Positions 21,752-38,376 of a DNA stretch of 64,000 bases are shown here, piece after piece; the stretch's first letter is position 1, and each line of letters begins with the position of its first letter. Under the pieces are notes generated by a model. It worked only from the letters and a program-made list of their open reading frames with translations. It did not search any database and had not been told where the DNA came from. This DNA is from Opitutia bacterium (GTDB lineage: Bacteria > Verrucomicrobiota > Verrucomicrobiia > Opitutales > Opitutaceae): assembly GCA_947478395.1 (NCBI GenBank), contig CANJVR010000004.1, positions 64,001 to 128,000 on the forward strand, given 5' to 3'. The position numbers and the translations under genes were made by a program.

Positions 21752-22006
21752 ATCCCCTCAGAAAATGTCGCGTTGGGCTCCAATGAGGCAGCGCACAGTT
21801 CACGAAAAAATGTTCGGGGTTAATAGGGTGTCGCGGGAATCGCAGGGGCGCAGAGATGCGTCAAACGAAAAAGGACACGTGTCTTCTTTTCATCATTAGC
21901 CGCCTGGTGGCATGGCTTCCGATGGATGCGGCATCGCCGCGGTGGGTGGGCGGGGTCGGGCGTGCAGCGCGACCGAAATCGATGGGCCTCAGTATCGGCG
22001 GGTCGG

Positions 22007-22804: not shown

Positions 22805-22979
22805 GGGGTAAAAAGCTACGCAGACATTTCGCATCACCGTGGACGGCGCAATGCTATCTTAGGCGCTCGTGAACCAACGATTTTATCGGCGCCGGGCGGG
22901 CGATCATCGCGTGCGAGGTCCCGGTGTTCTTCGTCAATGCCGCTAGGTATTGCACGATGGGCTAAGTCTGTTTTAGGGC

Positions 22980-23025
22980 GCGCAATAAATGCACACGCGG
23001 CCTCCAGTGCGCGCAAAGAGTGCAC
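22980..23025 (+). promoter_or_regulatory. Tandem candidate enhancer (UAS) sites for a sigma54 activator
   Basis: GCGCAATAAATGCAC (22980-22994) and GCGCAAAGAGTGCAC (23011-23025), 31 bp apart, upstream of a -24/-12 promoter. Confidence 0.55.
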
Positions 23026-23066
23026 ATAAATGACGCCAATCCCCGCGTTTCGCCCCGTTTCGCCCC

Positions 23067-23084
23067 TTGGCATGCCCATTGCAT
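23067..23084 (+). promoter_or_regulatory. Sigma54 (-24/-12) promoter of the T2SS-like operon
   Basis: TTGGCATGCCCATTGCAT matches TGGCACG-N4-TTGCW with exact GG-N10-GC spacing, 19 bp before ATG 23104. Confidence 0.8.
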
Positions 23085-23103
23085 AGGCGACGGCCCTCAG
23101 TTT

Positions 23104-23757
23104 ATGAACTCACTAATCGACTCCTCTCGCGTTTCGTTTCGCGCTCACCCCGCTCGCGGTTTGTCGCTGTTGTTGGCCTTCGGCGTCACGGCATCCGCTC
23201 TTTTTGCCCAAGCTGATCCCAACGCCGCACCCGCTGACGCGGCGAATCAGAACGGGCGCGGTCGTCGCGGGCAAAATGCCGGCGGCCAAGGCCAGGTCCC
23301 GGGTGGCGGTCGGGGAAATTTTAATCCGGAAGAAATGCTGCAACAACGGATGACGCAGATGCGCGAACAATTTGAGATCACCGACGATGCAGAGTGGAAA
23401 GTGATCTCCGACCGCATCACGACCGTTAGCGAGGCCCAGCGTCTTTCGATGACTGCGGGCATGGGTGGCGGCGGGCGTGGCGGATTCGGCGGTCCCGGTG
23501 GCGCTCCTGGAGGCCGCGGCGCTGCTGGCGGTAATCGCGGCGGTCGCCAGGGTTTGAATGCGAACCCTGAGCAGGATGCACTGCGTCAAGCGGTGACCGA
23601 CAAACTGCCTGACGCCGAGATCAAGTCCCGTCTCGCGAGTCTGCGCGAAGCCCGCAAGGCCAACGAGGAAAAGCTCAGCAAAACGCAGGAAGAGTTGCGC
23701 GCGGTCCTCAGCGTGCGACAGGAAGCGGTCGCGGTGATGCTCGGACTACTGCCTTAA
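23104..23757 (+). CDS. Exported Gly/Arg-rich helical protein, Spy/CpxP/ZraP-like
   Basis: Signal peptide ending ALFA-Q; two helical blocks with LTxxQ-like motifs (FEITDDAE, VLSVRQ) separated by an RGG-rich linker; family call is an inference. Confidence 0.6.
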   Translation: MNSLIDSSRVSFRAHPARGLSLLLAFGVTASALFAQADPNAAPADAANQNGRGRRGQNAGGQGQVPGGGRGNFNPEEMLQQRMTQMREQFEITDDAEWKVISDRITTVSEAQRLSMTAGMGGGGRGGFGGPGGAPGGRGAAGGNRGGRQGLNANPEQDALRQAVTDKLPDAEIKSRLASLREARKANEEKLSKTQEELRAVLSVRQEAVAVMLGLLP

Positions 23758-25539: not shown

Positions 25540-25551
25540 CGTTTCCCCGCG

Positions 25552-26820
25552 ATGCCCCAATTTGCATTTAAAGCCATGCAGCACGATGGCGTTCTGACCG
25601 AGGGGTTTCTCGACGCGAGTAACCGGCAGGAAGCGGTGCGCCAGGTCGAGGGTCGCGGGCTGAAACCTATTCGGCTTTCGGAGTCGAGCGCCCCGGCGCC
25701 AAAAAAAATCGCGGCGAAGGCCGGCGCGACGGAGGCTACGGCGAAAGGCGGACTGCTCGCACTCTCCATCGGTGGGGCCAAAAAAATCACGCCGCGCATG
25801 TTGGAAAATTTCACGCGGCTGCTGTCGAGCTTGCTCGCGGCGGGGGTGCCGTTTAGCCGGGCGCTGGTCATTCTTCATCGTGAATCCGCGGAGCCAGTGG
25901 CGAAGGCTAAGTGGAAAGAAATCCACGATCTGGTTATCGACGGCATGTCGCTTTCGAAAGCGATGGAGCGTTCACCGGAAACCTTTCCGCGCGTTTACGT
26001 CGCGATGGTCGAGGCGGGCGAAACCGGCGGGTTTCTCGATGTTGTACTCGCGCAGATCGCGGATTTTCAGGCGCGGGAAAAAGAACTGAAATCGAAGGTG
26101 ATGACCGCGCTGATGTATCCGATCATCCTGCTGATCCTCGCGCTGGGCGTTTTGATTTTTCTGATGGTGTTTTTTATCCCGCGTTTCCAGCTGATCTTCG
26201 CGGGCTTCAACGCGGAGCTGCCGTTGATCACGCAGGTGATCGTGAAAACCAGCCAGATCGTCCGTGGTTACGGTTTGTTTCTCCTCGCCGGTGTAATCGC
26301 CGGATTTTTCTCGCTCAGAACTTGGCTGAACTCGCCGAAAGGGCGGCGGGCGTGGGAAGGGATGATGCTGAAAATCACGCTCGTCGGCCCGCTGATCGCG
26401 CAATTTGCGATGGCCCGTTTTTGCCGAATGCTGGGCACCCTATTGCAGGCCGGTGTACCCTTGATCAGCGCCCTGAACGTCGCGCGACGTTCTATTGGCA
26501 ATCAGGTGCTCATCGACGCGGTATCCGATTCGATCGATCGCGTGAAGGAGGGTAAACCCCTCGGCAAAAGCTTGGCGCAAAACCGAGATCTATTCCCTGG
26601 CGCGATCGTCGAAATGATCTCGGTCGCGGAGGAAAGCGGAAAGCTCGACGTTGAGCTGATGCGCATAGCCGCGGTGACGGAAGGCGATCTCGACCGTCAG
26701 CTCAAGTCGGTCGTGGCCCTTGCCGAGCCCGTGATGCTGTTCTTCATCGCGGCGTTCATTGGCACCATCTTCATCGGCATGGTGATCCCGATCTTCTCTC
26801 TGCAAGACCACATCAAATAA
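25552..26820 (+). CDS. gspF: Type II secretion inner membrane platform protein GspF/PilC
   Basis: FTRLLSSLLAAGVP, AGETGG.L, ALMYP, AEESGKL and LAEPVML. Confidence 0.95.
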   Translation: MPQFAFKAMQHDGVLTEGFLDASNRQEAVRQVEGRGLKPIRLSESSAPAPKKIAAKAGATEATAKGGLLALSIGGAKKITPRMLENFTRLLSSLLAAGVPFSRALVILHRESAEPVAKAKWKEIHDLVIDGMSLSKAMERSPETFPRVYVAMVEAGETGGFLDVVLAQIADFQAREKELKSKVMTALMYPIILLILALGVLIFLMVFFIPRFQLIFAGFNAELPLITQVIVKTSQIVRGYGLFLLAGVIAGFFSLRTWLNSPKGRRAWEGMMLKITLVGPLIAQFAMARFCRMLGTLLQAGVPLISALNVARRSIGNQVLIDAVSDSIDRVKEGKPLGKSLAQNRDLFPGAIVEMISVAEESGKLDVELMRIAAVTEGDLDRQLKSVVALAEPVMLFFIAAFIGTIFIGMVIPIFSLQDHIK

Positions 26821-26827
26821 TTCCTCC

Positions 26828-27283
26828 ATGAAATTAAAATCCTCCACGCAATCATTTGGGCGTCGGTCCCGCCGCGGTGGCTTCACGCTCGTTGAACTTC
26901 TGCTCGTGCTTGTCATTCTCGGAATTTTGGCGGCGCTCGTGCTGCCGAAGTTCAGCGGCCGCACCGAGCAGGCGCGCATCACCGCGGCCCAGACTCAAAT
27001 CTCCACGTTTAAAACCGCGCTCGACGGCTTTGAAGTCGACACCGGCAGCTATCCGCGGGGCACCGACGGACTGCAGCAATTGCTCGTGGCCTCGCCCGAC
27101 GTCAGCGGCTGGCGCGGACCGTATCTGAGCAGCGATATTCCGCTCGATCCCTGGGGTCATCCCTACTCTTACGAGTATCCGGGCCGCATTAATTCCAACG
27201 GATTTGATATCATTTCGATGGGACCCGACGGCCAGCCTGGCACGAACGACGACATCATGAATGCAACTATCTCGGCAAAGTAA
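26828..27283 (+). CDS. gspG: Major pseudopilin GspG
   Basis: GFTLVELLLVLVILGILAA, WRGPYL, DPWGHPY.Y and SMGPDGQPGTNDDI. Confidence 0.95.
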   Translation: MKLKSSTQSFGRRSRRGGFTLVELLLVLVILGILAALVLPKFSGRTEQARITAAQTQISTFKTALDGFEVDTGSYPRGTDGLQQLLVASPDVSGWRGPYLSSDIPLDPWGHPYSYEYPGRINSNGFDIISMGPDGQPGTNDDIMNATISAK

Positions 27284-27839
27284 CGGATTGAGCCGCGCTT
27301 CGTTTTGGGCGCGCGGTCGACGCGGTTTCACGCTGATCGAGCTGATCTTCGTGCTGACGATCCTCGCCATCAGCGCCGCGTTTGTGGCGGCGCGGATGAG
27401 TTCTTTTTTCCGTGGACGAGCGCTGAACTTCGAGGCGCGCCGCATGTTGTCGCTCGCCCACTACGGCCAGAGCCGCGCGGTGGCCGAGGGTGTGCCAGTC
27501 TTACTGTGGCTGAATGGCAAGGACTCGACCTACGGTCTCACGGTCCAATCCAGCTTCAACGATACCGATGGCGATATGCACGCGAACCTCTACACCTTGG
27601 ACCCAAGTATTAGCCTGCAGACGATCGCGAACGATGGCGCATCGGTCTCGGAGCGGGACGACGAAAAGCTCGGCGTGCCCGAGGATCTGGCGTTCATTCG
27701 TTTTACCCCCGACGGCTTCTTCGACGATTCGAGCGTGCGCAAAATCACGCTGAGTCAGGGCGTCGAAGCCGCCCTCGATCTGGTGCCAATGCTCAACCGG
27801 CTCGGTTACGAAATTCGGCCCGCTTCCAATGCCAATTGA
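27261..27839 (+). CDS. gspH: Minor pseudopilin, GspH/FimT-like
   Basis: RRGFTLIELIFVL prepilin motif; IRFTPDG; lies directly after gspG. Confidence 0.75.
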   Translation: MQLSRQSNGLSRASFWARGRRGFTLIELIFVLTILAISAAFVAARMSSFFRGRALNFEARRMLSLAHYGQSRAVAEGVPVLLWLNGKDSTYGLTVQSSFNDTDGDMHANLYTLDPSISLQTIANDGASVSERDDEKLGVPEDLAFIRFTPDGFFDDSSVRKITLSQGVEAALDLVPMLNRLGYEIRPASNAN

Positions 27840-28272
27840 GTTCGAGTCTTTCGCGCCCCGCCGGACTTCGTTTCTCCGCCATCGGAGCCAACGCGGATTT
27901 ACTTTGGTCGAAGTGCTCGCGGCGTTGTTGTTCATGGCCATTCTGATTCCGGCGACCATGCACGGCGTCGCTGTTTCGAGCCGCGCGGGTATTCTGGGAC
28001 AGCGCAAATCGACCGCGATGCGCATCGCCGAACGCGTCCTCGATGAACAGATCCTCACCGGTCAGGTGACCACCGGACCCGGCAACGGCAGTATCATCGA
28101 TGGCGACGTCACGTATCCGTGGACGTTGAAGGTCGATTCGTGGAGTGAAGACGCCATGAGTCTGGTGACCGTGTTGGTGTCTTTCGAAGTGCAAGGCAGC
28201 ACTTTCGACGTCGGCGCCAGCACGCTGTACGATCCCACTGCCGGTTCGACCACCACGGCATCCACGCCCTGA
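27829..28272 (+). CDS. gspI: Minor pseudopilin, GspI-like
   Basis: QRGFTLVEVLAAL prepilin motif; 147 aa; position in cluster. Confidence 0.7.
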   Translation: MPIEFESFAPRRTSFLRHRSQRGFTLVEVLAALLFMAILIPATMHGVAVSSRAGILGQRKSTAMRIAERVLDEQILTGQVTTGPGNGSIIDGDVTYPWTLKVDSWSEDAMSLVTVLVSFEVQGSTFDVGASTLYDPTAGSTTTASTP

Positions 28273-29000
28273 TGCGAACTCGGATTTGCAGTCGCCAGGT
28301 CATCAGGGCTTTCACGTTGCTCGAGCTGCTGCTCGCGATGGCGATCGGCGCGGTCGTGTTGCTGGTGATCAACGGGACCTTCTTTGGCGCGTTGCGATTG
28401 TACAACACGACGCACGATAAGATCGACGTCGACCTCGCGCTGCAACGCACGCTCGGGATTGTGCGCCGGGACCTCGCGGGGATCATGATTCCCGCCAGTC
28501 CCACCGCGACGACGAATAACTTCGCCGGCCAGCTGCAGTCCGACGCGACCGGCACCACCGCCCTCGACGACACCGCGCAGCGCATCACGCCCGATATCAA
28601 CACCAACTCGGGCCGCATCGACGGCTGGAGTCCGTTCGCCGATGTCCAGACCGTGACTTACTACCTGTCGTCCGCGAGTGACGGCGGGCCGACCAAAAAT
28701 CTTGTGCGTGCGGCCAACCGCAATCTTTTGTCCGCGAGTACCGAGACCACGATCGACGGTCAGGTTTTACTGACCGGCGTCAGCACCGCGGCGCTTTCGT
28801 TTTACGATGGTGAAAGCTGGGTTGAGACGTGGGACTCGACGTCGACGACGAGTTTGCCCAGCGCGCTGAAATTTAGCTTGGTAATGGCTCCGCGCGAAGG
28901 CGGGAACCGCGCCGATCCTGCGCCGATCGAGCTGATCGTGCCCGTGATCGTGAAGACCACCACCACCGCGCAACAGGAGGCGACAGCAGCCACGCCATGA
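28272..29000 (+). CDS. gspJ: Minor pseudopilin, GspJ-like
   Basis: AFTLLELLLAMAI; RRDL; FYDGESWVETWDS..LPSALKFSL. Confidence 0.8.
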   Translation: MRTRICSRQVIRAFTLLELLLAMAIGAVVLLVINGTFFGALRLYNTTHDKIDVDLALQRTLGIVRRDLAGIMIPASPTATTNNFAGQLQSDATGTTALDDTAQRITPDINTNSGRIDGWSPFADVQTVTYYLSSASDGGPTKNLVRAANRNLLSASTETTIDGQVLLTGVSTAALSFYDGESWVETWDSTSTTSLPSALKFSLVMAPREGGNRADPAPIELIVPVIVKTTTTAQQEATAATP

Positions 29001-30421
29001 TCGGAGCTCGTACCAATATTTTCCGAGATTCGCGGCGGCCTTGCGGGCCGTTCCGTCCGCTCGGCACGTCGAACCGCGCGAGGGGTTCCGTGCTGATTAT
29101 TGTGATGTGGATCTGTCTCGGGCTGGTCGCGCTCACCCTTTATTTCGCGAGCTCGATGAGTTCGGAGCTGCGGGCGGCCGACAATCGCGGAGCCGAGGTC
29201 GCATCGCGGCAGGCGATCGCCGGCGCCACGCGTTACGCGACGTATATCCTTAAGCAATACGCGGTCGGCGGGGTCGTGCCGGAGATCGATAACTACAAGG
29301 CTGAGGCGGTCCCGGTCGGCGCCGCGAGTTTTTGGTTTATCGGCCGCGCGACCGATTCACAGCAACTGCAGAAGCAGACCAATGTTCAGAACGAGCCGTA
29401 TTTCGCGCTCGTCGACGAATCGTCGAAGCTGAACTTGAACACGGCGACGGCGGCGATGATCCAAGCCCTGCCGTTGCCGGACATGACGCCCGATTTCGCC
29501 GCCGCCGTTGTCGCGTGGCGAAGCGCGAACAGCGCAAACGCGCAAACCCAGGACGGTATCCTGTCGCAGCTCAATCCGCCGCGCCACAATAAGGGCGCGC
29601 CCTACGAGACGGTGGATGAAATCCGGCTCATCAATGAGGCTGCGCTCGATCTGCTCGTTGGCGAAGATACGAATCGAAACGGCGTGCTCGACCCCAATGA
29701 AGACGACGGCGAGTTGTCCGCGCCGCGCGACGACCAAAACGGTCAGCTCCTCGCCGGCCTGCTGGAATACGTCACCGTCTACAGCAGCCAGCCGACCACC
29801 AGTGCATCCGGCACCCGGCGCACGAATGTCACCACGCTGACGACCCCGCAGGCGCGCAACACTCTCTCGCAACTCTTGGTCACGCGTGGCATCACGCAGC
29901 AGCGCGCGCAACAGATGATGGCGCGGATCACCAACACCACTACGCTGACCAGCGTCGCCGATTTCATGGTGACGACGCAGGTCACCGCTGCGGAGTTTGC
30001 GCTCATTCACACCGACTTGACCGCGGCCGCGGCGGCCGCGCCCGGCCTCATCAACGTGAACACGGCCAGTGAAGCGGTTCTCACGTGCATCCCGGGCATC
30101 GGCGCGGACGGCGCGGCCACACTCGTCGCTTATCGGGCGGCGCATCCGGAGGAGTTGACCTCGATGGCGTGGCTCACCGCGGCGGGACTTACCGCCGCCA
30201 ACATCCGGCGCGCGGGGACGTACATCACGGATCAATCTTATCAATTCTCCGCGGACATCGCGGCGGTCGGCGCCACCGGCCGCGGTTATTGCCGGGAAAA
30301 GGTCGTTTTCGATGTCAGCACTGGCACCCCGCGAATCGTCAATCGTCAGGACCTGACCGCTTTCGGCTGGGCGCTTGGGACGACCGTCAAACGCACTCTC
30401 AATGGAACGAAGGATATATGA
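28997..30421 (+). CDS. gspK: Minor pseudopilin GspK with helix-hairpin-helix motifs
   Basis: RGSVLIIVMWI (no Glu5, as in GspK), DESSKLNLNTA and INVNTASEAVLTCIPGIG. Confidence 0.85.
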   Translation: MIGARTNIFRDSRRPCGPFRPLGTSNRARGSVLIIVMWICLGLVALTLYFASSMSSELRAADNRGAEVASRQAIAGATRYATYILKQYAVGGVVPEIDNYKAEAVPVGAASFWFIGRATDSQQLQKQTNVQNEPYFALVDESSKLNLNTATAAMIQALPLPDMTPDFAAAVVAWRSANSANAQTQDGILSQLNPPRHNKGAPYETVDEIRLINEAALDLLVGEDTNRNGVLDPNEDDGELSAPRDDQNGQLLAGLLEYVTVYSSQPTTSASGTRRTNVTTLTTPQARNTLSQLLVTRGITQQRAQQMMARITNTTTLTSVADFMVTTQVTAAEFALIHTDLTAAAAAAPGLINVNTASEAVLTCIPGIGADGAATLVAYRAAHPEELTSMAWLTAAGLTAANIRRAGTYITDQSYQFSADIAAVGATGRGYCREKVVFDVSTGTPRIVNRQDLTAFGWALGTTVKRTLNGTKDI

Positions 30422-31833
30422 GTACTAAAAAGAAGGCTACGAAACGCGCCCCATCCGTCCTCGGCCTTGTGCTGGCGGACGGCCAGTTGCGGGCGTTTAA
30501 TGTGACGCGCACCAAGGACCGGTTGGAAATTGGGAAGGTCGCGAGCGCGCCGATGACGCTCGACCTGTTGCATCCGGAGGCCGAGCTCGTTGGCCGGGAA
30601 ATCAAAAACCACCTCGACGCCGCCGGGATTCGCGAGCGGCACTGCATCGTCGGTCTTCCGCCGCGCTGGGTGATGAGCCAGCATGCTGCGCTGCCTGAGC
30701 TCTCCCCGGAGGACGCGAACAGTTTTCTGCAGATGGAAGCGGAGAAAGGCTTCCCGGTTGATCCCGCGCAGTTGCAAATCGCGCGTTCCTTTCAACGTTC
30801 CACCGGTGGGACGTTCGTGACCCAGCTCGCCGTGCGCCGGGAGCAGATCGATCAGCTCAGCGCCGTGTTGAAGGCCGCGGGGTTAAAGGAAGTCAGCTTT
30901 TCGCTTGGGCTCGCGATGCTCCCGGGCGTGATTTCGCCGGCTGGCAGCGGTGGCCGTATCACCGTCGCCGTGGAAACGACCGGAATCACCCTGTTGATCG
31001 CGGCGGGGGGCGGTATCGCGGCGTTCCGCACGTTCGAGGCGAGTATAGAATCCGAGGCCGGCGAGAAACTCATCAATGGCGCGGCGGTTGCGCGCGAACT
31101 GCGCATCACGTTCGAACAGGTACCCGCGGCGCTGCGTTCCGAGGTAGGAGAACTCTTGCTGCTCGGCGATTCTGCGATGGTGCGACAGCTCGCGGAGACG
31201 CTCGGTGACTGGGCGAAAACGGCTCAGCTTACGATCGTTCGGGGCGACCAGCCGGATAAAACTTTCGCCGCCGAGATGGCGGAAATGCTCGCGTCCCGCT
31301 GGCTGGACGGCACTTCGCCCAACTTGGAATTTCTGCCGCCGCGCCCGGGCCGCTGGGCCATGTTGGTTGCACGTTATAATTCGAAGCGGCTTGCGAGCGT
31401 GGGCTTCGCCGCCGGAGCGCTCGTTTTGCTGACGATCCTGGCGTTTGGCTGGCTCGAGTTTCGCCGCTGGTCGCTCCAATCCGAATGGAGCGGTATGCAG
31501 ACCCAAGTGGTGGCGCTTGAAGCGGTGCAGGCCAAGATCCGCGAATTCTCTCCTTTCTACGATACTTCGTTCCGCAGTCTGAGCATCCTGAAACGCGTCA
31601 CCGAGTGTTTCCCGGATAACGGCTCGGTCACCGCCAAAACCTTTGAGCTGCATGGCACCTCGGCGGTGAGCATCAGCGGCACGATGCGCGATAACGCCGC
31701 CTTGATTCGGGTGCAAGACGCCCTGAGTAAATCGAAGGAAATCAAGGACGTTAAAATCGAGCAGATTCGTGGTAAATCTCCGGCTATGCAGTACACCCTC
31801 ACCGTTCGTTGGAACGCTCCCTCCGGCTCATGA
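30418..31833 (+). CDS. GspL-like / PilM-PilN-like assembly platform protein
   Basis: Start ATG 30418 overlaps the gspK stop; actin-like cytoplasmic region, one TM helix, coiled coil and ferredoxin-like C-terminus (VSISGTM); position in cluster. Confidence 0.7.
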   Translation: MSTKKKATKRAPSVLGLVLADGQLRAFNVTRTKDRLEIGKVASAPMTLDLLHPEAELVGREIKNHLDAAGIRERHCIVGLPPRWVMSQHAALPELSPEDANSFLQMEAEKGFPVDPAQLQIARSFQRSTGGTFVTQLAVRREQIDQLSAVLKAAGLKEVSFSLGLAMLPGVISPAGSGGRITVAVETTGITLLIAAGGGIAAFRTFEASIESEAGEKLINGAAVARELRITFEQVPAALRSEVGELLLLGDSAMVRQLAETLGDWAKTAQLTIVRGDQPDKTFAAEMAEMLASRWLDGTSPNLEFLPPRPGRWAMLVARYNSKRLASVGFAAGALVLLTILAFGWLEFRRWSLQSEWSGMQTQVVALEAVQAKIREFSPFYDTSFRSLSILKRVTECFPDNGSVTAKTFELHGTSAVSISGTMRDNAALIRVQDALSKSKEIKDVKIEQIRGKSPAMQYTLTVRWNAPSGS

Positions 31834-32381
31834 TATCTAATCTTCCTCCCCGTCAGCGCCTCCTCGCGATCATCGCGGGCGTCGTGGTCGCATTGCTCGT
31901 ACTCGACAGTGTTGTCATCGAACCGCTCTACCACACCTGGCAGACGCATGCGGCCGAGATCACACGGCTGAACGCGTCCGTCACTAAAGGTCGCACCACC
32001 ATCGCGCGTGCGGCGCAGAACGATCGCCGCTGGAGCGATATGCAGGCCAATGCGCTGGCCAAGGAGCCCTCGCAGGCGGAGGGCGACGTTTACTCCGCGT
32101 TCGACCGTTGGGCCGTCGCGAACCGGGTCGAACTTTCCGGCATCCGCTTTCAATGGAAACGCGGCGCGACGGACAAATATTCCCTGCTCGAAGGTCGCAT
32201 CGATGCCACGGGCACGATGACTACGCTGAGCCATTTCCTTTATGAACTTGAGCAGTCGGCCCTCGCTCTGCGCGTCGACTCGGTGGAAATTACATCCCGG
32301 GACGATAGTGGTCAGAAACTGGGCCTCAGCCTCATCGTCAGCGGCCTCCGCCTCACCCCTTTGGAGCGCAAATTACAATGA
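31830..32381 (+). CDS. GspM/PilO-like protein
   Basis: PRQRLL + TM helix + coiled coil + GTMTTLSHFLYELE..LRVDSVEI; ATGA overlap with the previous gene. Confidence 0.75.
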   Translation: MISNLPPRQRLLAIIAGVVVALLVLDSVVIEPLYHTWQTHAAEITRLNASVTKGRTTIARAAQNDRRWSDMQANALAKEPSQAEGDVYSAFDRWAVANRVELSGIRFQWKRGATDKYSLLEGRIDATGTMTTLSHFLYELEQSALALRVDSVEITSRDDSGQKLGLSLIVSGLRLTPLERKLQ

Positions 32382-33016
32382 ACCCACGTTTGATCCTCCT
32401 CTCAATTGCGATCCTTGGCGCGCACCGCGTCTCCGCGGTCGACGTCAAGCCGGCTCCCGCCGCCCCGGCGCCTGCGAAAGCGGCGGTCGGCGTGGCCAAG
32501 GCTCCGACTGCGTCGTCCGTGGCGCCCACTGGCACCTACGACGCGTTCCGCATCGTCACCGACCGCAATATTTTTAACCCCAACCGCACCGGTCGCCGCG
32601 ATCGTAGCGTCGACGAGGTGCCGCCCCGGCTCGATATCATCACGCTCGTTGGCACGATGGATTCCGACAAGGGGCTGCGCGCCTTCTGCGACGGCTCCGA
32701 TGCCGCCTACCGCAAAGCGCTGCGCGTGGGCGACTCGGTCGATAAATTTAAGGTGACCAAAATCAGCGCCAATACGGTGGACTTTGAGGCCGACGGAAAG
32801 TCGTTTTCCGCCCGCGTCGGTCAGCAATTCCATCGGCCGGAAGGCGCTGATTGGACTTTGGTTGGCGAAGATGTCGCCCGCCTTGAGGCTCAAGCCCGCG
32901 CCGCTGCGGCCAACGCTGGCCGGGTCAATCCCAACGCTCCGGTCGCAATCCCGGCCGATGCATCTGACGCCGTTCGGAAAATGATGGAGAGACGCAATCA
33001 AACTTTGAAACCATGA
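32378..33016 (+). CDS. GspC/PilP-like protein
   Basis: N-terminal hydrophobic segment, RNIFNP, LVGTM and LRVGDSVDKFKVTKISANTV (HR-domain-like); lies just before the secretin genes. Confidence 0.6.
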   Translation: MNPRLILLSIAILGAHRVSAVDVKPAPAAPAPAKAAVGVAKAPTASSVAPTGTYDAFRIVTDRNIFNPNRTGRRDRSVDEVPPRLDIITLVGTMDSDKGLRAFCDGSDAAYRKALRVGDSVDKFKVTKISANTVDFEADGKSFSARVGQQFHRPEGADWTLVGEDVARLEAQARAAAANAGRVNPNAPVAIPADASDAVRKMMERRNQTLKP

Positions 33017-34263
33017 AAACCACGCACATCACCCCGGCCGTGTGGCTCGGAATCGCCACGCTTACCTCCAGTGTCTGGGCCCAAGACCCGGTAGCTGCCG
33101 TCAACGCGCCCGCGTCCGACGTCGCTCAAGCTCCCGCCGCACGCGCCGCGGGGACGCTACGCTTTAATTTCCGCGGCGCGCCCTTAGAGGCCGTGCTCAC
33201 CTACATGAGCGAAGCCGCCGGTTACACCATCGTGCTCGACACGCCGGTGCGCGGCACCGTCGACATGTTCAGCGCCCAGCCGATCACTCGCACGGAAGCG
33301 CTTCAACTCCTCAACCTCGCGCTAAATAAAAACGGTTTCACCTCCGTCGTTGAGGGCCGGACGATCGTGATTTCGTCGAAGGAGGACGCGAAAAAGAAGA
33401 ATCTTCCGATTCGCACGAGCAACAATCCCGACGAGATTCCGAACACCGCCGAGATGGTGATTCAAATCATTCCGCTGCGGCACCTCGACGCCACGACGGC
33501 CGCGCGCGATCTGGGTGCGCTGTTACCCGGGACTTCGACGCTCACGGCCAACGCGGATAGTAATTCGCTCATCGTGACGGACACGAACATCAATCTCAAA
33601 CAGGTCGTGAAACTGGTGGATGCGCTCGACACCTCGAGCGACTCCGTTTCGACGATGAAAATTTTTGAGCTCAAGAACGCCGACCCGTATGAAATGGCGC
33701 AGCTCATCACCAATCTCTACAGCACAACCGCGCAGGCTCAGAATGGTGGGCGCGGCGGCCAGGCCGCCGGTGGTTTTGGCGCTGGCGGCTTCGGCGGCGC
33801 GGCCGGTCTCGCCGCAGTCTTTGGTGGCGGGGCCAACGCCGGCGGCGGCGGCGGCCGTGGGGGCGGCGGTGGTGGTGGTGGCGGTGGTGGTGGCGGTCGC
33901 GCGGGTCGTGGTGGCACCACGACCAACCGGACGGTTCCCGTCGTGGCAGTCGCCGATCCGCGCACGATGCGCGTGATCGTCACGGCTTCGAAAGACCAGA
34001 TGCCGGACATCACGGTCATGGTTGCCCAGCTCGATTCGACCACGGGGCGCAAGCAGCAGGCCTTCGTTTACAACATCGAGAACGGAAACGTGAAACAGAT
34101 GGAGACGATGCTGAAGGCACTCTACCCGAGCAGCTCCAATCGGACCACGACCAACAATCAGCCCGACCCGTTGACCTCGCGCGCGACGACAAACGCCAAC
34201 AGCGGCACCACGCAACTCCAACTCGGCACCACGAGCGGCACGGGTACCACGCGGACGAACTAA
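33013..34263 (+). CDS. Secretin N-terminal half (N0, NolW-like N repeats, first half of N3); no secretin barrel
   Basis: Signal peptide; LRFNFRGAPLEAVL (N0); IIPLRHLDA..SNSLIVTD; IFELKNADP..RVIVTAS; ends after FVYNIENGNVKQMETMLKALY plus an S/T/N-rich tail. Confidence 0.85.
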   Translation: MKTTHITPAVWLGIATLTSSVWAQDPVAAVNAPASDVAQAPAARAAGTLRFNFRGAPLEAVLTYMSEAAGYTIVLDTPVRGTVDMFSAQPITRTEALQLLNLALNKNGFTSVVEGRTIVISSKEDAKKKNLPIRTSNNPDEIPNTAEMVIQIIPLRHLDATTAARDLGALLPGTSTLTANADSNSLIVTDTNINLKQVVKLVDALDTSSDSVSTMKIFELKNADPYEMAQLITNLYSTTAQAQNGGRGGQAAGGFGAGGFGGAAGLAAVFGGGANAGGGGGRGGGGGGGGGGGGGRAGRGGTTTNRTVPVVAVADPRTMRVIVTASKDQMPDITVMVAQLDSTTGRKQQAFVYNIENGNVKQMETMLKALYPSSSNRTTTNNQPDPLTSRATTNANSGTTQLQLGTTSGTGTTRTN

Positions 34264-34286
34264 CCGGCTAGTCTAAATCAAATTCT

Positions 34287-35465
34287 ATGAATTCTAAATT
34301 TTTCCGGTCTCAGGCCCAGTCGGCTGTGCTGACGGCCTTCGTTTTATTCAGTTCCGTTTCCGCTTTCGGCCAAGGCCGGGGCGGTGCCGTCGGCGGCGGT
34401 GGCGGTGGAATTGGCGGCGGCGGCGGTGGTGGCGGCGGTGGTGGCGGTACAAGCTCGAGCACTCGGCAGTACCAAAATTCCACGTTGGTGGGCGACGCCT
34501 CGATATCGAGCGATGTCGACACCCGGCAGATAATCGTGGTCACGGATCCGCTCACCAACGAAAGCATCCGGGCCGTTATCGCGAGCCTCGACAAGCCGCG
34601 GCCCCAAGTGCTGATCAACGTGGTCTTCATGCAGGTCACGCATGACAACAGTTTCGACTTGGGCGCCGAGGCGAAGTACCAGGGACCGATCTCCATCAAG
34701 ACCAATCCGGAGGGCATCGCGCAGACGAAATTCGGCATCGCGAGTGCACTGGCCAACAGCTCGATCACGGGTGCGTTCTACAGTCTCATCGGGCGTGACA
34801 TTCAGTCGACCATTCACGCCTCCGCCGGCGTGAGCAAAACGGAGATTCTCTCCCGTCCCTCCATTCTGACCCGGAGCAATCAACAGGCGACGATCCTCGT
34901 CGGACAAAATGTCCCGTTGCTCAGCACCACGACGCAGAACCTGAATTCGGCGAACAATTCCATCACCAGCACGATCACCTATCAGGACGTGGGTATCATT
35001 CTTCGCGTGACGCCGTTCATCACGCAGGACGGCTTGGTGGAAATGATCGTCGCGCCCGAGATCTCCTCGATCAGTCCCACCACCGTCTCGATTCCGGGTG
35101 CGGGTAACGCCACCGTGATCGATCGCCGCTCGGCCGATACCGTAGTGGTTACGCCCAGCGACCAGACGATTGTGATCGGCGGCTTGATCTCATCCCAGAA
35201 AAACAACGTGGACAATAAAGTGCCGCTATTGGGCGACATCCCGCTCATCGGCAGCCTCTTTAAGCGGAAGACGACGGAAGACGTAAAAACCGAGCTCCTG
35301 ATTTTCCTGACGCCCCACGTCGTCAAAAAGCCGTCCGACCTTGCCGCGTTGACTGACAGTGAGCGCTCGCGCCTCAACATGGCGCCGGTGACGTTCGACA
35401 AGGCCGACATCGGCAAATTTCTTCCCGCTAGCTCGCCCGCCAATAACGCGGGCCCCAAGCCCTGA
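34287..35465 (+). CDS. gspD: Secretin C-terminal half (second half of N3 + secretin core), GspD-like
   Basis: Own signal peptide (…SVSAFG-Q); DTRQIIVVT..LDKPRPQVLINV; LSRPSILT..QQATILVGQNVP; YQDVGIILRVTP; KVPLLGDIPLIGSLF; ELLIFLTPHVV. Confidence 0.9.
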   Translation: MNSKFFRSQAQSAVLTAFVLFSSVSAFGQGRGGAVGGGGGGIGGGGGGGGGGGGTSSSTRQYQNSTLVGDASISSDVDTRQIIVVTDPLTNESIRAVIASLDKPRPQVLINVVFMQVTHDNSFDLGAEAKYQGPISIKTNPEGIAQTKFGIASALANSSITGAFYSLIGRDIQSTIHASAGVSKTEILSRPSILTRSNQQATILVGQNVPLLSTTTQNLNSANNSITSTITYQDVGIILRVTPFITQDGLVEMIVAPEISSISPTTVSIPGAGNATVIDRRSADTVVVTPSDQTIVIGGLISSQKNNVDNKVPLLGDIPLIGSLFKRKTTEDVKTELLIFLTPHVVKKPSDLAALTDSERSRLNMAPVTFDKADIGKFLPASSPANNAGPKP

Positions 35466-35521
35466 ACGTAATTGAAGCTTGGAATGGGCGGCGGTTCCGG
35501 GCGAATTGACAGCTGCGCTCC

Positions 35522-36997
35522 ATGGGCTCGCCGAATGCCAAACGCCGTCTGTTTATTTATGTCACCCTGATCGGATGCGGGCTCGGGGTGTGCGCGTGGC
35601 AGTTCGAGGAGCACGCTCGTTTTAAACGCGAGGCGGAAAACGCCCTGATCAACCGCGCCAGCGATATCACCTCGACGCTGGGGGTCGTGGTGCGTTCGCA
35701 GCAACGCTTCAGCCCGATGGTCTCGAAGGACCGTCTGGAGTCGGCGCTGAAACTGCTCGTTTCAGACGAGCTAAAGGCCATCACGATCCTAGCTGCGACC
35801 GGCCAGCCGATTGCGAGCGCGGGCAGCAAAATGGAGCTGCCGGGCGATATTTTGCAGCCACCTGGCGTGCACTGGGAGGATCGCACGCTGACGGTTATGA
35901 ACCCAACTGACCTCGGATCGCCGGCCACCGACGACCTGTCGCGGCCGCGTCCCCCGATTGTGGTGACCGACGAGAGGCTCGGTCGCGAGCGGCTTCCAAG
36001 TCGGCGCTCCCAGCCGGTGTCCACCGAAGTCCCCATGCCCGCAGCGGACGGCGGGCCCGCGCCCGTGACCCCGGCGGAGTCGCGCCCGCTCATGGGCCGG
36101 CCGTACTGGATGATGACCGCGGAGCAGATCCAAAAGCAGGGCGTGCATGCGATCGTCATCTCGCTCTCCACGGAAAAGATGCACCGCACCGTGAATGCCG
36201 ACCTGCTATTGCGTTCCATGGTCAGCCTGCTCGCGATGGGTGGGGCGATGATCTCTTCGCTGGCGTGGCGGAACGTCGGGAAAAATTCCGAGCTTCAAAT
36301 CCGCCTGATCAAGGCGGGCGAGATGAATACACACTTGAAGGAAATGAATCTCGCGGCCGCCGGACTCGCCCACGAGACGCGCAATCCGCTCAACCTGATC
36401 CGTGGCCTGGCACAGATGATTTCGATGGAGGCCAAAGATACCCCAAAGTTGAAGGAGCACGCTTCGATCATCCTCGAGGAAGCTGATCGCGTGACCGTGC
36501 AGCTGAATGAATTCATTAACTACTCGAAACCGCGCAACGTGCAGTTGGCCCCCGTTGATGTGCAGCGTCTGGTCGCGGATTTAGCGCGCACGCTCGTACC
36601 GGACATCGAAGAAAAACAGATCGTTGTGCAGCAACCAGAGTCGGCGCTCATCATCGACGCCGACGAACAGCTGTTGCGGCAGGCGTTGTTCAACGTGTTG
36701 TTGAACGCCATTCAGGCTGTGTCCTTGGGCGGACGCGTGGAGGTGCGCCTAGCCACCGTCGGCTCGCGTGAAGCCATACTTGAAATCCGTGACGACGGCC
36801 CCGGGGTACCGGCGGCTGATCGTGTTTCAATTTTTAAGCCCTACATCACCATGCGGCCCAAAGGGGTCGGGCTGGGCCTCGCCATCGTGGCGCAAATTGC
36901 CGCGGTGCATCACTGGGAAGTCAGTTGCGAAGCGAACGAACCGCGGGGCGCGTGCTTCCGATTCAGCGGACTCAAGCTCGCCGCTGCGCCGACATGA
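35522..36997 (+). CDS. Membrane sensor histidine kinase (ZraS/AtoS-like)
   Basis: Two TM segments; H-box AAGLAHETRNPL; N-box NVLLNAIQA; DDGPG; GVGLGL. Confidence 0.92.
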   Translation: MGSPNAKRRLFIYVTLIGCGLGVCAWQFEEHARFKREAENALINRASDITSTLGVVVRSQQRFSPMVSKDRLESALKLLVSDELKAITILAATGQPIASAGSKMELPGDILQPPGVHWEDRTLTVMNPTDLGSPATDDLSRPRPPIVVTDERLGRERLPSRRSQPVSTEVPMPAADGGPAPVTPAESRPLMGRPYWMMTAEQIQKQGVHAIVISLSTEKMHRTVNADLLLRSMVSLLAMGGAMISSLAWRNVGKNSELQIRLIKAGEMNTHLKEMNLAAAGLAHETRNPLNLIRGLAQMISMEAKDTPKLKEHASIILEEADRVTVQLNEFINYSKPRNVQLAPVDVQRLVADLARTLVPDIEEKQIVVQQPESALIIDADEQLLRQALFNVLLNAIQAVSLGGRVEVRLATVGSREAILEIRDDGPGVPAADRVSIFKPYITMRPKGVGLGLAIVAQIAAVHHWEVSCEANEPRGACFRFSGLKLAAAPT

Positions 36998-38376
36998 GCG
37001 CGGCCGCTCCGGATCAGCGGCGCATCCTGATCGTCGACGACGACCGCGCGCAGCGCAGCCTGTTGGAGACATTTCTCCATGCGCAGGGTTATCTCACGCA
37101 GTCGGCGGCCTCCGGCGAGGCGGCGCTCCAGCTTCTTTCAGAGGAGAAATTTGCGATGATGATTTCCGACGTCCGCATGCCGGGCATGTCGGGCTTGGAA
37201 ACGCTGCGTCGCGTGCGTCAAACGCTGCCGGATCTCCCCGTGCTGCTGGTCACCGCGTTTGCCGATATTCGCAGCGCGGTGGCGGCGATGCGGGATGGGG
37301 CCGTGAACTACCTCGCGAAGCCGATCGACCTCGACGAATTGATTCTCTCTGTGCGCAAGGCCACGGGCGGCGGGTCTAAACCTACGCCCACCGCCACGAC
37401 CGAGGCGCCGGTCCCTTCCGGGGTCATTACGAACAGTCTCTTGATGAAGGCGGTGTTTCGCGATGCGGCCGTGGTTGCGCCCTCCGAAAGTCGCGTGCTG
37501 CTCACCGGAGAAAGCGGCGTGGGTAAGGAGGTGGTCGCTGATCTCATCCACGCCTGGAGCCCGCGGGCGGGCGGGCCGTTGATTAAAATAAACTGCGCCG
37601 CGATTCCGGAGAACTTGCTGGAAAGCGAGTTGTTCGGATTTGAAAAAGGGTCGTTCACCGGCGCGATGCAGCAACGGATCGGTCGCTTCGAGGAGGCGAA
37701 TCGCGGCACCATTTTCCTCGATGAAATCGGGGAGATGGCGCTCCCGTTGCAGGCGAAACTGTTGCGGGTTTTGCACGATGGCACGTTCCGGCGCATCGGC
37801 TCGGCGCGGGATATTCACACCGACGCTCGGGTCCTGGCGGCGACCAACCGCGACTTGGAGGTCCAGATCGCCGCCGGCCAGTTTCGCGAAGACCTGTTCT
37901 ACCGACTCAACGTCATGGAAATTCATATCCCGCCTCTGCGGGATAGGCCGGAAGATATTTTGCCGCTGGCGACGTATTTCATCCAATTATTCTCACGGCA
38001 AAAACCGCGTTTCTCCGCGACGGTGACGGCCGCCATGATGCGGTACCGCTGGCCCGGCAATGTGCGTGAACTCCGCAACGCCATGGAGCGTGCAGCGCTC
38101 TTGTCCCGGGGCGAAATTGTTCTCCCGGAGCATCTGCCCACCCGCGTTTTGACTGCGCCGGCTGACGTCACAACGGGCGCTGGCGCCGCTGAACCCGCGG
38201 AGCGTCCCCGCCTCGAGGAAGTGGAGCGCGATGCGATCGTTAAAGCGCTCCGGAAAAATAATTATAACCGCACCGAAACCGCCAAGGAACTGGCGATCAG
38301 CCGCCGTGCTCTGATCTATAAGCTCCTGCGTTTGCGCGAGCAGGGTATCCAAGTCGATCTGTCGGAGGCGCCGTGA
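36994..38376 (+). CDS. Sigma54-dependent response regulator (NtrC/ZraR family)
   Basis: Receiver (ILIVDDD, DVRMPG); AAA+ GESGVGKE, ESELFG, GSFTGA, FLDEIGE, WPGNVREL; C-terminal Fis HTH; start at ATG 36994. Confidence 0.95.
   Translation: MSAAAPDQRRILIVDDDRAQRSLLETFLHAQGYLTQSAASGEAALQLLSEEKFAMMISDVRMPGMSGLETLRRVRQTLPDLPVLLVTAFADIRSAVAAMRDGAVNYLAKPIDLDELILSVRKATGGGSKPTPTATTEAPVPSGVITNSLLMKAVFRDAAVVAPSESRVLLTGESGVGKEVVADLIHAWSPRAGGPLIKINCAAIPENLLESELFGFEKGSFTGAMQQRIGRFEEANRGTIFLDEIGEMALPLQAKLLRVLHDGTFRRIGSARDIHTDARVLAATNRDLEVQIAAGQFREDLFYRLNVMEIHIPPLRDRPEDILPLATYFIQLFSRQKPRFSATVTAAMMRYRWPGNVRELRNAMERAALLSRGEIVLPEHLPTRVLTAPADVTTGAGAAEPAERPRLEEVERDAIVKALRKNNYNRTETAKELAISRRALIYKLLRLREQGIQVDLSEAP

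What the first reader, a model, noticed from the sequence alone, without database searches (positions are those of the whole stretch)
33013..35465. Secretin naturally split into two exported proteins inside the N3 loop
Seen: gene 1 encodes N0, two NolW-like repeats and only the first strand-helix of the last repeat (FVYNIENGNVKQMETMLKALY), then an S/T/N-rich tail and a stop. After a 23-bp AT-rich spacer, in another frame, gene 2 starts with its own signal peptide and a poly-Gly tract. It then supplies the missing strand-strand-helix (ASISSDVDTRQIIVVTDPLTNESIRAVIASLD) and the full secretin core. Known: GspD is one chain, the N3 ring is needed for assembly, and N3 carries a variable disordered loop at this position. 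Inference: N3 is rebuilt by fragment complementation between two polypeptides, making the periplasmic vestibule a detachable or exchangeable module. The second signal peptide argues strongly against a frameshift artefact.
Basis: partly seen in the sequence, partly recalled or inferred. Interest (0 to 1): 0.88.

Follow-up and report, generated by a model that had tools for sequence, protein, structure and literature searches.

The report
Naturally split type II secretin
The outer-membrane pore protein of this bacterium's type II secretion system is encoded as two adjacent genes, each with its own export signal and cut in the middle of one small domain; this is an old, conserved arrangement rather than an error.

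Summary
ORF 33013-34263 (416 aa) carries a signal peptide, N0, N1, N2 and only strand 1 and helix 1 of N3, then a conserved Ser/Thr/Asn-rich tail. ORF 34287-35465 (392 aa) carries its own signal peptide, a poly-Gly tract, N3 strands 2-3 and helix 2, and the secretin core.

It is not an artefact:
- Contigs from three other studies bridge the junction without indels.
- No frameshift can join the two frames.
- 23 of 23 loci examined, window included, show the same split. Spacers are 21-58 nt where measured (17 loci), and all three frame offsets occur.
- On a tree of 155 relatives, the split forms are one clade (support 100) holding none of the 88 unsplit forms.
- A second, independent split at the same loop exists in another clade.

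The pair closes a complete T2SS operon (gspE-F-G-H-I-J-K-L-M-C-like) and is followed by a conserved histidine kinase and sigma-54 regulator.

Rebuilding of N3 in trans is inferred, not shown. Both half-domains are as conserved as whole domains. The one complex prediction gave no verdict.

Precedents exist: the rhizobial T3SS secretin RhcC1/RhcC2, cut between domains, and the half-N-domain proteins of the mitochondrial T2SS. This scan had already noted the same split on at least six other genomes. I rate it a new variant of a known kind.

The parts
33013..34263 (+). gspD-N: N-terminal half of the split secretin (416 aa)
   Evidence: ORF. Pfam N0 and Secretin_N. TIGR02517 profile positions 1-297 of 600. 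The best 120 of 120 listed homologues are 352-462 aa and carry N0 and Secretin_N but no Secretin domain.
33013..33081 (+). Signal peptide of gene 1 (aa 1-23, V-W-A/Q site)
   Evidence: Read from the translation. The pattern is conserved in the family (listing), but hydrophobicity is below my crude threshold in 46 of 102 members. SignalP was not run.
33157..33399 (+). N0 domain (aa 49-129)
   Evidence: PF21305. AF2 secondary structure with pLDDT about 86.
33454..33645 (+). N1 domain (aa 148-211)
   Evidence: PF03958 best stretch 151-208. Strand-helix-strand-strand-helix in the AF2 model.
33646..34041 (+). N2 domain (aa 212-343) with a 67-aa Gly-rich loop (aa 239-305, 33727-33927) between helix 1 and strand 2
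   Evidence: AF2 model: E213-219, H225-236, disorder 239-305, E311-315, E320-326, H330-341. Loop conservation is 0.55 against 0.84-0.85 for the flanks.
34060..34128 (+). N3a: strand 1 and helix 1 of N3 (aa 350-372)
   Evidence: Aligns to 6hcg_A residues about 262-287. Helix 360-370 in the AF2 model; strand 1 is not formed in isolation. Conservation 0.88, the highest of any segment.
34129..34260 (+). Ser/Thr/Asn-rich tail (aa 373-416) with a conserved P/T-L-x-x-R motif region
   Evidence: D385 and N394 are invariant; R377, Q383, L387, R390, A391 and L404 are nearly invariant. Conservation of aa 373-400 is 0.79. The motif is visible in most of the distant loci. Low-confidence helix 386-399.
34264..34286 (.). 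23-nt intergenic spacer holding an in-frame TAG (34269-34271) that closes the gene 2 frame
   Evidence: Sequence. Spacers of 21-58 nt and frame offsets 0, 1 and 2 in 7, 4 and 6 of 17 loci.
34287..35465 (+). gspD-C: C-terminal half of the split secretin (392 aa)
   Evidence: ORF. PF00263 E 1e-47. TIGR02517 positions 280-600. The best 120 of 120 listed homologues are 311-404 aa. The AF2 model matches XcpQ 5wln_A with Z 15.6, rmsd 6.1, 286 residues aligned, model 59-372.
34287..34370 (+). Signal peptide of gene 2 (aa 1-28)
   Evidence: Helix 6-21 in the AF2 model. 93 of 97 family members pass the crude signal-peptide test and none has a lipobox.
34371..34448 (+). Poly-Gly tract (aa 29-54), remnant of the ancestral N3 loop
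   Evidence: pLDDT below 50. Unsplit relatives have a 40-110 aa Gly/Ser/Thr/Asn-rich loop at this place.
34449..34592 (+). Conserved head (aa 55-71) and N3b: strand 2, strand 3 and helix 2 of N3 (aa 72-102)
   Evidence: E72-76, E81-85, H88-101 with pLDDT 73-86. R60, G69, A71, R80, D87, T90, L101 and D102 are invariant. Conservation 0.82.
34593..35327 (+). Secretin core (aa 103-347)
   Evidence: PF00263, PDB profile matches and structural matches.
23767..33016 (+). Rest of the T2SS operon: gspE 23767-25539, gspF 25552-26820, gspG 26828-27283, two pseudopilin-like genes 27261-27839 and 27829-28272, gspJ 28272-29000, gspK 28997-30421, gspL-like (PilM/PilN-like) 30460-31833, gspM 31809-32381, gspC-like 32378-33016
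   Evidence: Pfam. NCBIfam GspM E 5e-8, GspC_delta E 2e-5 (below cut-off) and pilM E 3e-5. The order K-L-M-C-like-DN-DC is kept in all 10 loci whose upstream flank reaches back to gspK.
35522..38376 (+). Histidine kinase (35522-36997) and sigma-54 response regulator (36925-38376) directly downstream
   Evidence: Pfam. A kinase homologue lies downstream in 15 of 16 distinct loci and a regulator in 14 of 16.

Best explanation
This is a working two-gene secretin of a type II secretion system.

An ancestral single-chain GspD had a long low-complexity loop between helix 1 and strand 2 of its N3 domain. The gene broke inside that loop, and the downstream piece gained its own Sec signal peptide.

Both products are exported separately:
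- GspD-C (N3 strands 2-3, helix 2 and the secretin core) builds the outer-membrane pore.
- GspD-N (N0-N1-N2, N3 strand 1 and helix 1, then a conserved tail) supplies the periplasmic vestibule and the N0 site for the GspC-like protein.

The two chains are held together by rebuilding the N3 fold in trans, probably helped by the conserved tail of GspD-N and the conserved head of GspD-C.

Shown: the gene structure, its conservation, its single main origin and a second independent origin, and the operon context. Inferred: export of both chains, 1:1 assembly and complementation of N3.
For: Anatomy:
- The two ORFs tile one GspD profile: positions 1-297 and 280-600 of 600.
- The cut maps between 6hcg_A residues 287 and 306, in the N3 loop.
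- AF2 models give gene 2 only strand-strand-helix before the barrel. They give gene 1 only helix 1, with strand 1 unformed, after complete N0, N1 and N2.

Not an artefact:
- Contigs of three other studies bridge 34255-34295 with 0-1 differences and no indels (X10 record 3, X9 record 21, X12 record 10).
- The gene 2 frame is closed after the gene 1 stop.

Conservation:
- 17 of 17 loci and 6 of 6 further loci are split. In the 17 loci, spacers are 21-58 nt and frame offsets are 0, 1 and 2 in 7, 4 and 6.
- The best 120 of 120 listed homologues of each half are half-length.
- Tree of 155 rows: one clade with SH-aLRT 100 holds 43 split rows and 4 fragments, and 0 of 88 unsplit rows.
- Unsplit relatives at about 40% identity have a 40-110 aa Gly/Ser/Thr/Asn loop at this site.
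- A second split at the same loop, again with a new signal peptide, is nested among unsplit relatives (P0313, L067/L068).

Constraint on the halves: N3a scores 0.88, N3b 0.82 and tail 373-400 0.79. The whole domains score 0.84-0.86 and the other low-complexity loops 0.53-0.55.

Signal peptide: 93 of 97 family members pass, against 186 of 1117 control windows.

Context: a full T2SS operon, syntenic in relatives.
Against: - No direct evidence that the two proteins bind, and no experiment of any kind.
- The signal peptides were judged with my own crude rule, not SignalP. The gene 1 peptide is under my hydrophobicity threshold in 46 of 102 family members.
- RNA-library contigs lie on both genes but none bridges the junction, and DNA carry-over is not excluded.
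- The orthologue is patchy: 7 of 401 sampled genomes of the phylum, with only 4 candidates scored per genome. It is therefore an accessory system.
- The tree used the quick method. It is rooted at the midpoint only, and 22 rows could not be classified.
Confidence: 0.7

Rival explanations
1. Two real proteins, but N3 is not rebuilt. GspD-C alone forms the pore with a vestigial N3 remnant. GspD-N is a separate periplasmic ring or adaptor held by other contacts, such as its conserved tail, the GspC-like protein or the pseudopilus.
For: The gene 1 tail is conserved well beyond what a linker needs (0.79; invariant D385 and N394) and could be a docking peptide in its own right. AF2 folds N3b against the barrel with pLDDT 73-86 without N3a.
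Against: N3a (strand 1 and helix 1) is the most conserved segment of gene 1 (0.88). Its hydrophobic positions F351, Y353, V360, L367, L370 and F371 are nearly invariant, which is hard to explain if it never packs into a domain. The strand-strand-helix of N3b would have an open hydrophobic face. This last point rests on established knowledge of the secretin N-domain fold, not on a test here.
Confidence: 0.2
2. Assembly error, sequencing frameshift or a recently broken pseudogene.
For: Poly-Gly (GGC-rich) repeats flank the site, and read cover dips at 33828-33905 and 34380-34450.
Against: Three independent assemblies agree over the junction with no indels. 23 of 23 loci down to 42-49% identity keep the split with different spacers. 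Both halves are strongly conserved. The split forms are one deep clade.
Confidence: 0.01
3. Programmed frameshift or stop read-through makes one chain from the two ORFs.
For: The genes are adjacent and on the same strand. In 7 of 17 loci they share a frame.
Against: In the window the gene 2 frame is closed by TAG at 34269-34271, after the gene 1 stop. Spacer length (21-58 nt), spacer sequence and frame offset are not conserved. A fused product would carry a hydrophobic signal peptide in the middle of a periplasmic domain.
Confidence: 0.02
4. GspD-N is a shared or exchangeable vestibule that also serves other secretins of the cell, or GspD-C also works as a pore for another machine.
For: The genome has three other secretin loci. 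The split in principle allows mixing.
Against: Those three are long single frames of 694-974 aa with their own N-terminal regions. The two halves are always adjacent, and where flanks allow they lie in the same operon. No evidence of exchange was found.
Confidence: 0.05

Closest known systems
Canonical single-chain T2SS secretin GspD (PulD 6hcg, XcpQ 5wln, E. coli GspD 5wq7, V. cholerae EpsD 5wq8)
   Same: Same domain order N0-N1-N2-N3-secretin core and the same operon partners. The gene 2 model aligns to 5wln_A (Z 15.6, rmsd 6.1, 286 aligned) and to 5wq7_A (Z 15.5, rmsd 7.0, 281 aligned).
   Different: Here there are two polypeptides with two signal peptides, cut inside N3. Each half scores under the curated TIGR02517 cut-off of 351 bits (159 and 242 bits). 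Gene 1 also has a conserved tail with no counterpart that I could see in the loops of 18 unsplit relatives.
Rhizobial-type T3SS split secretin RhcC1 (NolW) / RhcC2
   Same: A secretin encoded by two genes in working machines. The papers say its significance is unknown (PMC3574062 section 16 and PMC3973906 section 11, passages read).
   Different: That is a T3SS, and its genes are not adjacent. On pNGR234a the N0-and-Secretin_N ORF and the only Secretin-domain ORF lie about 12 kb apart. The N-part holds a complete Secretin_N domain (profile positions 1-63 of 69) and covers SctC profile 2-142. The C-part has its own T2SS-T3SS_pil_N and BON domains before the core and covers SctC profile 234-462. 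That cut is therefore between domains, not inside one. Only this one replicon was tested, and equating these two ORFs with RhcC1 and RhcC2 is my inference from the papers.
Mitochondrial T2SS-derived system of some protists (GspD, GspDL, GspDN1-3)
   Same: GspD is split into several polypeptides. GspDN3 and GspDN2 correspond to the N-terminal and C-terminal halves of one N domain (PMC8134430 section 9, passages read). This is the only described case of half-N-domain proteins that I found.
   Different: It is eukaryotic, highly diverged and has no N0. The paper does not say which N domain is halved. I did not test homology with the present split. Its Supplementary Fig. 4B-D was not seen.
Unsplit relatives at about 40% identity (for example P0267, 876 aa; P0270, 752 aa; P0275; P0282)
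   Same: They are the nearest single-chain forms. They have the same N3 sequence pattern on both sides of a long Gly/Ser/Thr/Asn loop.
   Different: They are continuous through the loop, with no internal signal peptide.

Membership tests
T2SS secretin GspD (TIGR02517 / PF00263) | Secretin C-domain | tested here: met
   PF00263 E 1e-47 on gene 2 residues 183-347. Structural match to XcpQ and GspD with Z 15-16.
T2SS secretin GspD (TIGR02517 / PF00263) | N0 domain and N1-N3 Secretin_N repeats ahead of the core | tested here: met
   N0 and two whole repeats lie in gene 1. The third repeat is divided between gene 1 (strand 1 and helix 1) and gene 2 (profile positions 25-69 of 69).
T2SS secretin GspD (TIGR02517 / PF00263) | One polypeptide scoring over the curated equivalog cut-off (351.35 bits) | tested here: not met
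   Gene 1 scores 159.3 bits and gene 2 scores 242.2 bits. Each is under the cut-off, and they cover profile positions 1-297 and 280-600.
T2SS secretin GspD (TIGR02517 / PF00263) | Encoded with GspE, F, G, minor pseudopilins, L, M and C | tested here: met
   The L, M and C assignments rest on sub-threshold matches.
T2SS secretin GspD (TIGR02517 / PF00263) | Forms a multimeric outer-membrane pore used for secretion | not testable with these tools
   Needs biochemistry or cryo-EM.
Sec-exported proteins (both halves) | Cleavable N-terminal signal peptide: charged n-region, hydrophobic h-region, small residues at -3 and -1 | tested here: inconclusive
   Crude rule: gene 2 family 93 of 97 pass, gene 1 family 55 of 102 pass (weaker hydrophobicity, same pattern), controls 186 of 1117. 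SignalP is not available.
Rhc-type split T3SS secretin (RhcC1/RhcC2) | Part of a T3SS gene cluster | tested here: not met
   The neighbours are T2SS genes only.
Rhc-type split T3SS secretin (RhcC1/RhcC2) | Cut between whole domains, with the genes apart | tested here: not met
   Here the cut is inside N3 and the genes are 23 nt apart. On pNGR234a the N-part has a whole Secretin_N domain and the genes lie about 12 kb apart.
Mitochondrial GspDN2/GspDN3 half-N-domain proteins | Sequence homology to those families | not tested
   No sequences of those proteins were at hand. Only passages of PMC8134430 were read.

The most novel reading that the evidence does not exclude
The split makes an obligate two-chain secretin whose N3 ring exists only after both chains meet in the periplasm. 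Insertion of the pore into the outer membrane and docking of the N0-N2 vestibule, and through it the inner-membrane platform, would then be separate steps that could be reversible or regulated. The N3 loop would be a recurrent fission point, used at least twice in bacteria. It may also be the route by which the half-N-domain proteins of the mitochondrial T2SS arose.
Probability: 0.2. Interest if true: 0.85.

Novelty: new variant of a known kind. Interest (0 to 1): 0.62.

Why it matters
N3 is the periplasmic domain closest to the secretin core. The paper I read states that it is required for pore assembly (PMC8134430 section 8, citing earlier work).

A natural system in which N3 is divided between two separately exported chains is a ready-made tool. 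It could show in which order the parts of a secretin fold, oligomerise and connect to the inner-membrane platform.

It also has practical consequences:
- Annotation pipelines name the halves inconsistently: 'GspD', 'secretin N-terminal domain-containing protein' or 'hypothetical'.
- Each half scores under the GspD equivalog cut-off, so T2SS detection by whole-protein models can miss the secretin in these lineages.

Tried and rejected
**Complex prediction**
- I sent gene 2 residues 52-392 with gene 1 residues 350-416, each with its own alignment. The score was 0.20 against a mark of 0.32, and the controls were not run. This is no verdict, and I do not count it for or against binding.

**Literature**
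- Four full-text searches were run: 'split secretin'; secretin/split/GspD/'two genes'; secretin/Verrucomicrobia/'type II secretion'/GspD; and secretin/'two polypeptides'/'N3 domain'/'separate genes'.
- None turned up a description of a split bacterial T2SS secretin. They gave only the Rhc T3SS and mitochondrial cases.
- The library holds open-access papers and bioRxiv only, so absence from print is not shown.
- In PMC6668835 I read the passages containing 'split'. None concerns secretin genes.

**Link to the mitochondrial system**
- I asked whether the 245-aa ORF upstream of gspE (23020-23757) could be the PVC/Gcp16-type metallopeptidase of PMC8134430. Its translation has no H-E-x-x-H motif and no family hit. 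Rejected.

**Locating the Rhc genes**
- My first guess at the T3SS region of pNGR234a (450-500 kb) was wrong. The genes were then found by family search.

**Read laying**
- RNA-library contigs of X19 cover parts of both genes but not the junction. They cannot show transcription or co-transcription.
- The holes in cover at 33828-33905 and 34380-34450 are skipped Gly-codon repeats, not findings.

**Earlier notes and unused searches**
- Earlier notes of this scan for this genome: none.
- I did not use the third word-indexed protein search ('longer' lengths). The exhaustive representative search has no length limit. None of its first 26 hits (E 3.9e-64 or better) is a full-length single chain. Twenty-two are half-length proteins with a signal peptide. 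Four could not be classed, and two of those (P0263, P0266) look like truncated records of unsplit forms. The first full-length unsplit hit is P0267 (E 4.9e-64).
Full report
**What is there**

The window holds two same-strand ORFs: 33013-34263 (416 aa) and 34287-35465 (392 aa). They are separated by 23 nt and lie in different frames.

Domain content:
- Pfam finds N0 and Secretin_N in the first ORF. In the second it finds the Secretin core plus a sub-threshold match to only the second half of Secretin_N (profile positions 25-69 of 69).
- Against the NCBIfam GspD equivalog, the first ORF covers profile positions 1-297 of 600 and the second covers 280-600. Each scores under the curated cut-off: 159 and 242 bits against 351.
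- Family profiles of the two halves were laid on solved PulD (6hcg_A). The first ends on residues 228-287, which are the end of N2 followed by N3 strand 1 and helix 1. The second starts at residue 306, which is N3 strand 2.
- The AF2 model of gene 2 has mean pLDDT 71. It shows a signal-peptide helix (6-21), a disordered poly-Gly stretch (25-64), then strand 72-76, strand 81-85 and helix 88-101, then the barrel.
- That model matches XcpQ 5wln_A (Z 15.6, rmsd 6.1, 286 aligned) and GspD 5wq7_A (Z 15.5, rmsd 7.0, 281 aligned).
- The AF2 model of gene 1 has mean pLDDT 64. N0, N1 and N2 are complete, and N2 has a disordered Gly-rich loop at 239-305. Only a helix at 360-370 follows for N3, with strand 1 unformed. 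There is a low-confidence helix at 386-399 in the tail.

**Is it real?**

- The gene 2 frame is closed by TAG at 34269-34271, after the gene 1 stop at 34261-34263. No shift of frame can join them.
- Contigs of three runs from three other studies bridge the junction without insertions or deletions. X10 record 3 covers 33906-34379 with 0 differences. X9 record 21 covers the same span with 1 difference. X12 record 10 covers 34063-34379 with 1 difference. Table 4 of that call lists no indels.
- The only close orthologue among 40 relatives' genomes (69% identity, another genus) has the same stop, a 58-nt spacer and its own signal peptide.
- I read the junction in the window plus 16 distinct loci. 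These were L002 and 15 of the 16 loci; L032 is the same contig as L002. All 17 are split.
- In those 17, spacers are 21-58 nt and frame offsets are 0, 1 and 2 in 7, 4 and 6 loci.
- The loci include bins labelled Pedosphaera, Verrucomicrobiales and Omnitrophota, at 45-49% identity.
- Six further loci from a sample of the phylum are also split, 6 of 6. The total is 23 of 23.
- In the word-indexed protein search, the best 120 of 120 listed homologues of gene 2 are 311-404 aa.
- The best 120 of 120 listed homologues of gene 1 are 352-462 aa. All carry N0 and Secretin_N, and none carries Secretin.

**How old, and how often?**

- The exhaustive search of 50%-identity representatives has no length limit. 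Of its first 26 hits, 22 are half-length proteins with a signal peptide and none is a full-length single chain. The other four are P0246, P0247, P0263 and P0266. P0247 was left out as a fragment and the other three were classed ambiguous. P0263 and P0266 start inside an N domain and later sat among unsplit rows on the tree, so they look like truncated records of unsplit forms.
- The first full-length unsplit form is P0267 (876 aa, E 4.9e-64, 42% identity).
- I classified the best 150 by where N3 strand 2 falls and by a signal-peptide test: 29 split, 88 unsplit, 22 ambiguous and 11 fragments. The fragments were left out. One 'split' call, P0349, was corrected to fragment.
- The tree has 155 rows: 139 representatives, the window and 15 loci. 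It uses 299 columns and the IQ-TREE quick method.
- It puts 43 split rows and 4 ambiguous fragments in one clade with SH-aLRT 100, containing 0 of the 88 unsplit rows. Only P0313 was called split outside that clade.
- The root is at the midpoint only. The reading 'one fission' assumes that the root lies outside this clade.
- The orthologue is patchy: 7 of 401 sampled genomes of the phylum at E 1e-50 or better, own genome included, with only four candidates scored per genome.

I followed up the outlier P0313, using the single metagenome scan:
- I read 36 of the 80 loci returned. Thirty-two are continuous through N3. Three (L095, L097, L099) look like the main split type.
- L067, with its near-twin L068, has a gene 1 that ends in a Thr/Gly/Arg-rich tail. 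Its TGA overlaps the ATG of a gene 2 that starts with a fresh signal peptide, followed by N3 strand 2.
- Its nearest relatives (L050-L064, 60-67% identity to P0313) are unsplit.
- This is therefore a second, independent fission in the same loop, again paired with a new signal peptide.
I could not test the taxonomy.

**Where the cut fell**

Eighteen unsplit relatives at about 40% identity have a 40-110 aa Gly/Ser/Thr/Asn/Gln-rich stretch between N3 helix 1 and strand 2. The Ser/Thr/Asn tail of gene 1 and the poly-Gly head of gene 2 look like the two ends of that loop, with a stop, a spacer and a signal peptide set into it. N2 of gene 1 has a 67-aa Gly-rich loop at the equivalent place.

**Constraint**

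Conservation was measured as the mean fraction of sequences sharing the commonest residue.

| Segment | Conservation |
|---|---|
| N0 | 0.85 |
| N1 | 0.86 |
| N2 flanks | 0.84-0.85 |
| N3a | 0.88 |
| Gene 1 tail, aa 373-400 | 0.79 |
| Gly loop of N2 | 0.55 |
| Linker, aa 24-48 | 0.53 |
| N3b | 0.82 |
| Secretin core | 0.78 |

- The hydrophobic positions of N3a are nearly invariant, as are those of N3b.
- A short motif in the tail, P/T-L-x-x-R as I read it from the printed tails, recurs in most of the distant loci. I did not see it in the loops of the 18 unsplit relatives. That is an impression from reading, not a statistical test.

**Signal peptides**

My rule asks for three things: a 10-residue hydrophobic window scoring at least 2.0, a Lys or Arg before it, and a small-x-small site after it.
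- 93 of 97 gene 2 family members pass, and none has a lipobox.
- 186 of 1117 internal control windows pass.
- Only 55 of 102 gene 1 family members pass, because their h-region is weaker (1.7-1.9). The pattern itself is conserved.
- SignalP was not available.

**Context**

- The pair ends a complete T2SS operon: gspE, F, G, two pseudopilin-like genes, J, K, a PilM/PilN-like GspL, GspM and a 212-aa GspC-like protein. The GspC-like match is NF041515 at E 2e-5, under its cut-off.
- A histidine kinase and a sigma-54 response regulator follow.
- The order K-L-M-C-like-DN-DC is found in all 10 loci whose upstream flank reaches back to gspK. The kinase lies downstream in 15 of 16 distinct loci and the regulator in 14 of 16.
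- The same genome has three other secretin loci in long single frames of 694-974 aa. The split is therefore a property of this system, not of the organism's secretins in general.

**How it most likely works**

Both chains are exported by Sec. GspD-C builds the pore. GspD-N provides N0-N2 and completes N3 in trans, possibly clasped by the conserved tail and head.

The gene structure, conservation and origins are shown. Export, stoichiometry and complementation are inferred.

The main rival, at about 0.2, is that the chains associate without rebuilding N3. Artefact and recoding are practically excluded.

**Compared with what is known**

- A split secretin is established for the rhizobial-type T3SS (RhcC1/NolW and RhcC2). 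Its significance is stated as unknown (PMC3574062 section 16 and PMC3973906 section 11, passages read; their supplementary alignments were not seen).
- On pNGR234a the N-part ORF has N0 and a whole Secretin_N domain and covers SctC profile 2-142.
- The only Secretin-domain ORF there lies about 12 kb away. It has its own T2SS-T3SS_pil_N and BON domains.
- That cut is therefore between domains. I tested one replicon only, and naming the two ORFs RhcC1 and RhcC2 is my inference.
- In the mitochondrial T2SS of some protists, GspD is in several pieces. GspDN3 and GspDN2 are the N-terminal and C-terminal halves of an N domain (PMC8134430 section 9, passages read; Supplementary Fig. 4 not seen).
- Four full-text searches gave no description of a split bacterial T2SS secretin. 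The library is open-access only.
- This scan had already reported the same split on other genomes: e1-4737596, e1-2330221, e1-1365515, e1-4965776, e1-4744680 and e1-3618054. Those are unchecked AI notes. Everything claimed here rests on my own calls.

**Verdict**

This is a real, ancient and recurrently evolved two-gene T2SS secretin, cut inside N3. I rate it a new variant of a known kind, with interest 0.62.

Noticed in passing
L067:511-2355 and 2355 onward (near-twin L068); protein P0313: A second, independent split of a secretin at the same N3 loop. The gene 1 TGA overlaps the gene 2 ATG, and gene 2 starts with a new signal peptide. It is nested among unsplit relatives (L050-L064).
   Followed up: partly
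Proteins P0277, P0279, P0314, P0336, P0339, P0341, P0342, P0347, P0355, P0356, P0362, P0371, P0377, P0380, P0389: Giant proteins of 3,400-4,700 aa end in a secretin core at about 35-45% identity to gene 2. They cluster together on the tree. What the roughly 3,000-aa N-terminal part is was not examined.
   Followed up: no
window 33727-33927: N2 of gene 1 has a 67-aa Gly-rich disordered loop at the same helix-1/strand-2 position that is cut in N3. This loop position seems generally expandable in this lineage.
   Followed up: partly
window 35522-38376: A histidine kinase and a sigma-54-dependent response regulator sit directly behind the secretin pair. They are syntenic even in relatives at 45% identity (kinase in 15 of 16 loci, regulator in 14 of 16), which suggests a dedicated regulator of this T2SS.
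   Followed up: partly
window 23020-23757: A 245-aa ORF just upstream of gspE has a hydrophobic N-terminal stretch and Gly/Arg-rich low-complexity regions. It has no Pfam or NCBIfam match.
   Followed up: partly
window 30460-31833: The GspL position is taken by a protein with weak PilM-like (N-terminal) and PilN-like (C-terminal) matches, that is, a PilM/PilN-type fusion rather than a classical GspL.
   Followed up: no
window 33907-34174, 34657-35006, 35276-35500: Contigs of a freshwater metatranscriptome library (X19, 95-99% alike) lie on both halves of the secretin. This is compatible with expression in nature but is not proof, because DNA carry-over is not excluded.
   Followed up: partly
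window 18638-22837 (- strand): A TonB-dependent receptor with a carboxypeptidase-regulatory-like domain (18638-21751) and a 3-keto-disaccharide hydrolase (22007-22837) lie upstream of the T2SS operon on the other strand.
   Followed up: no
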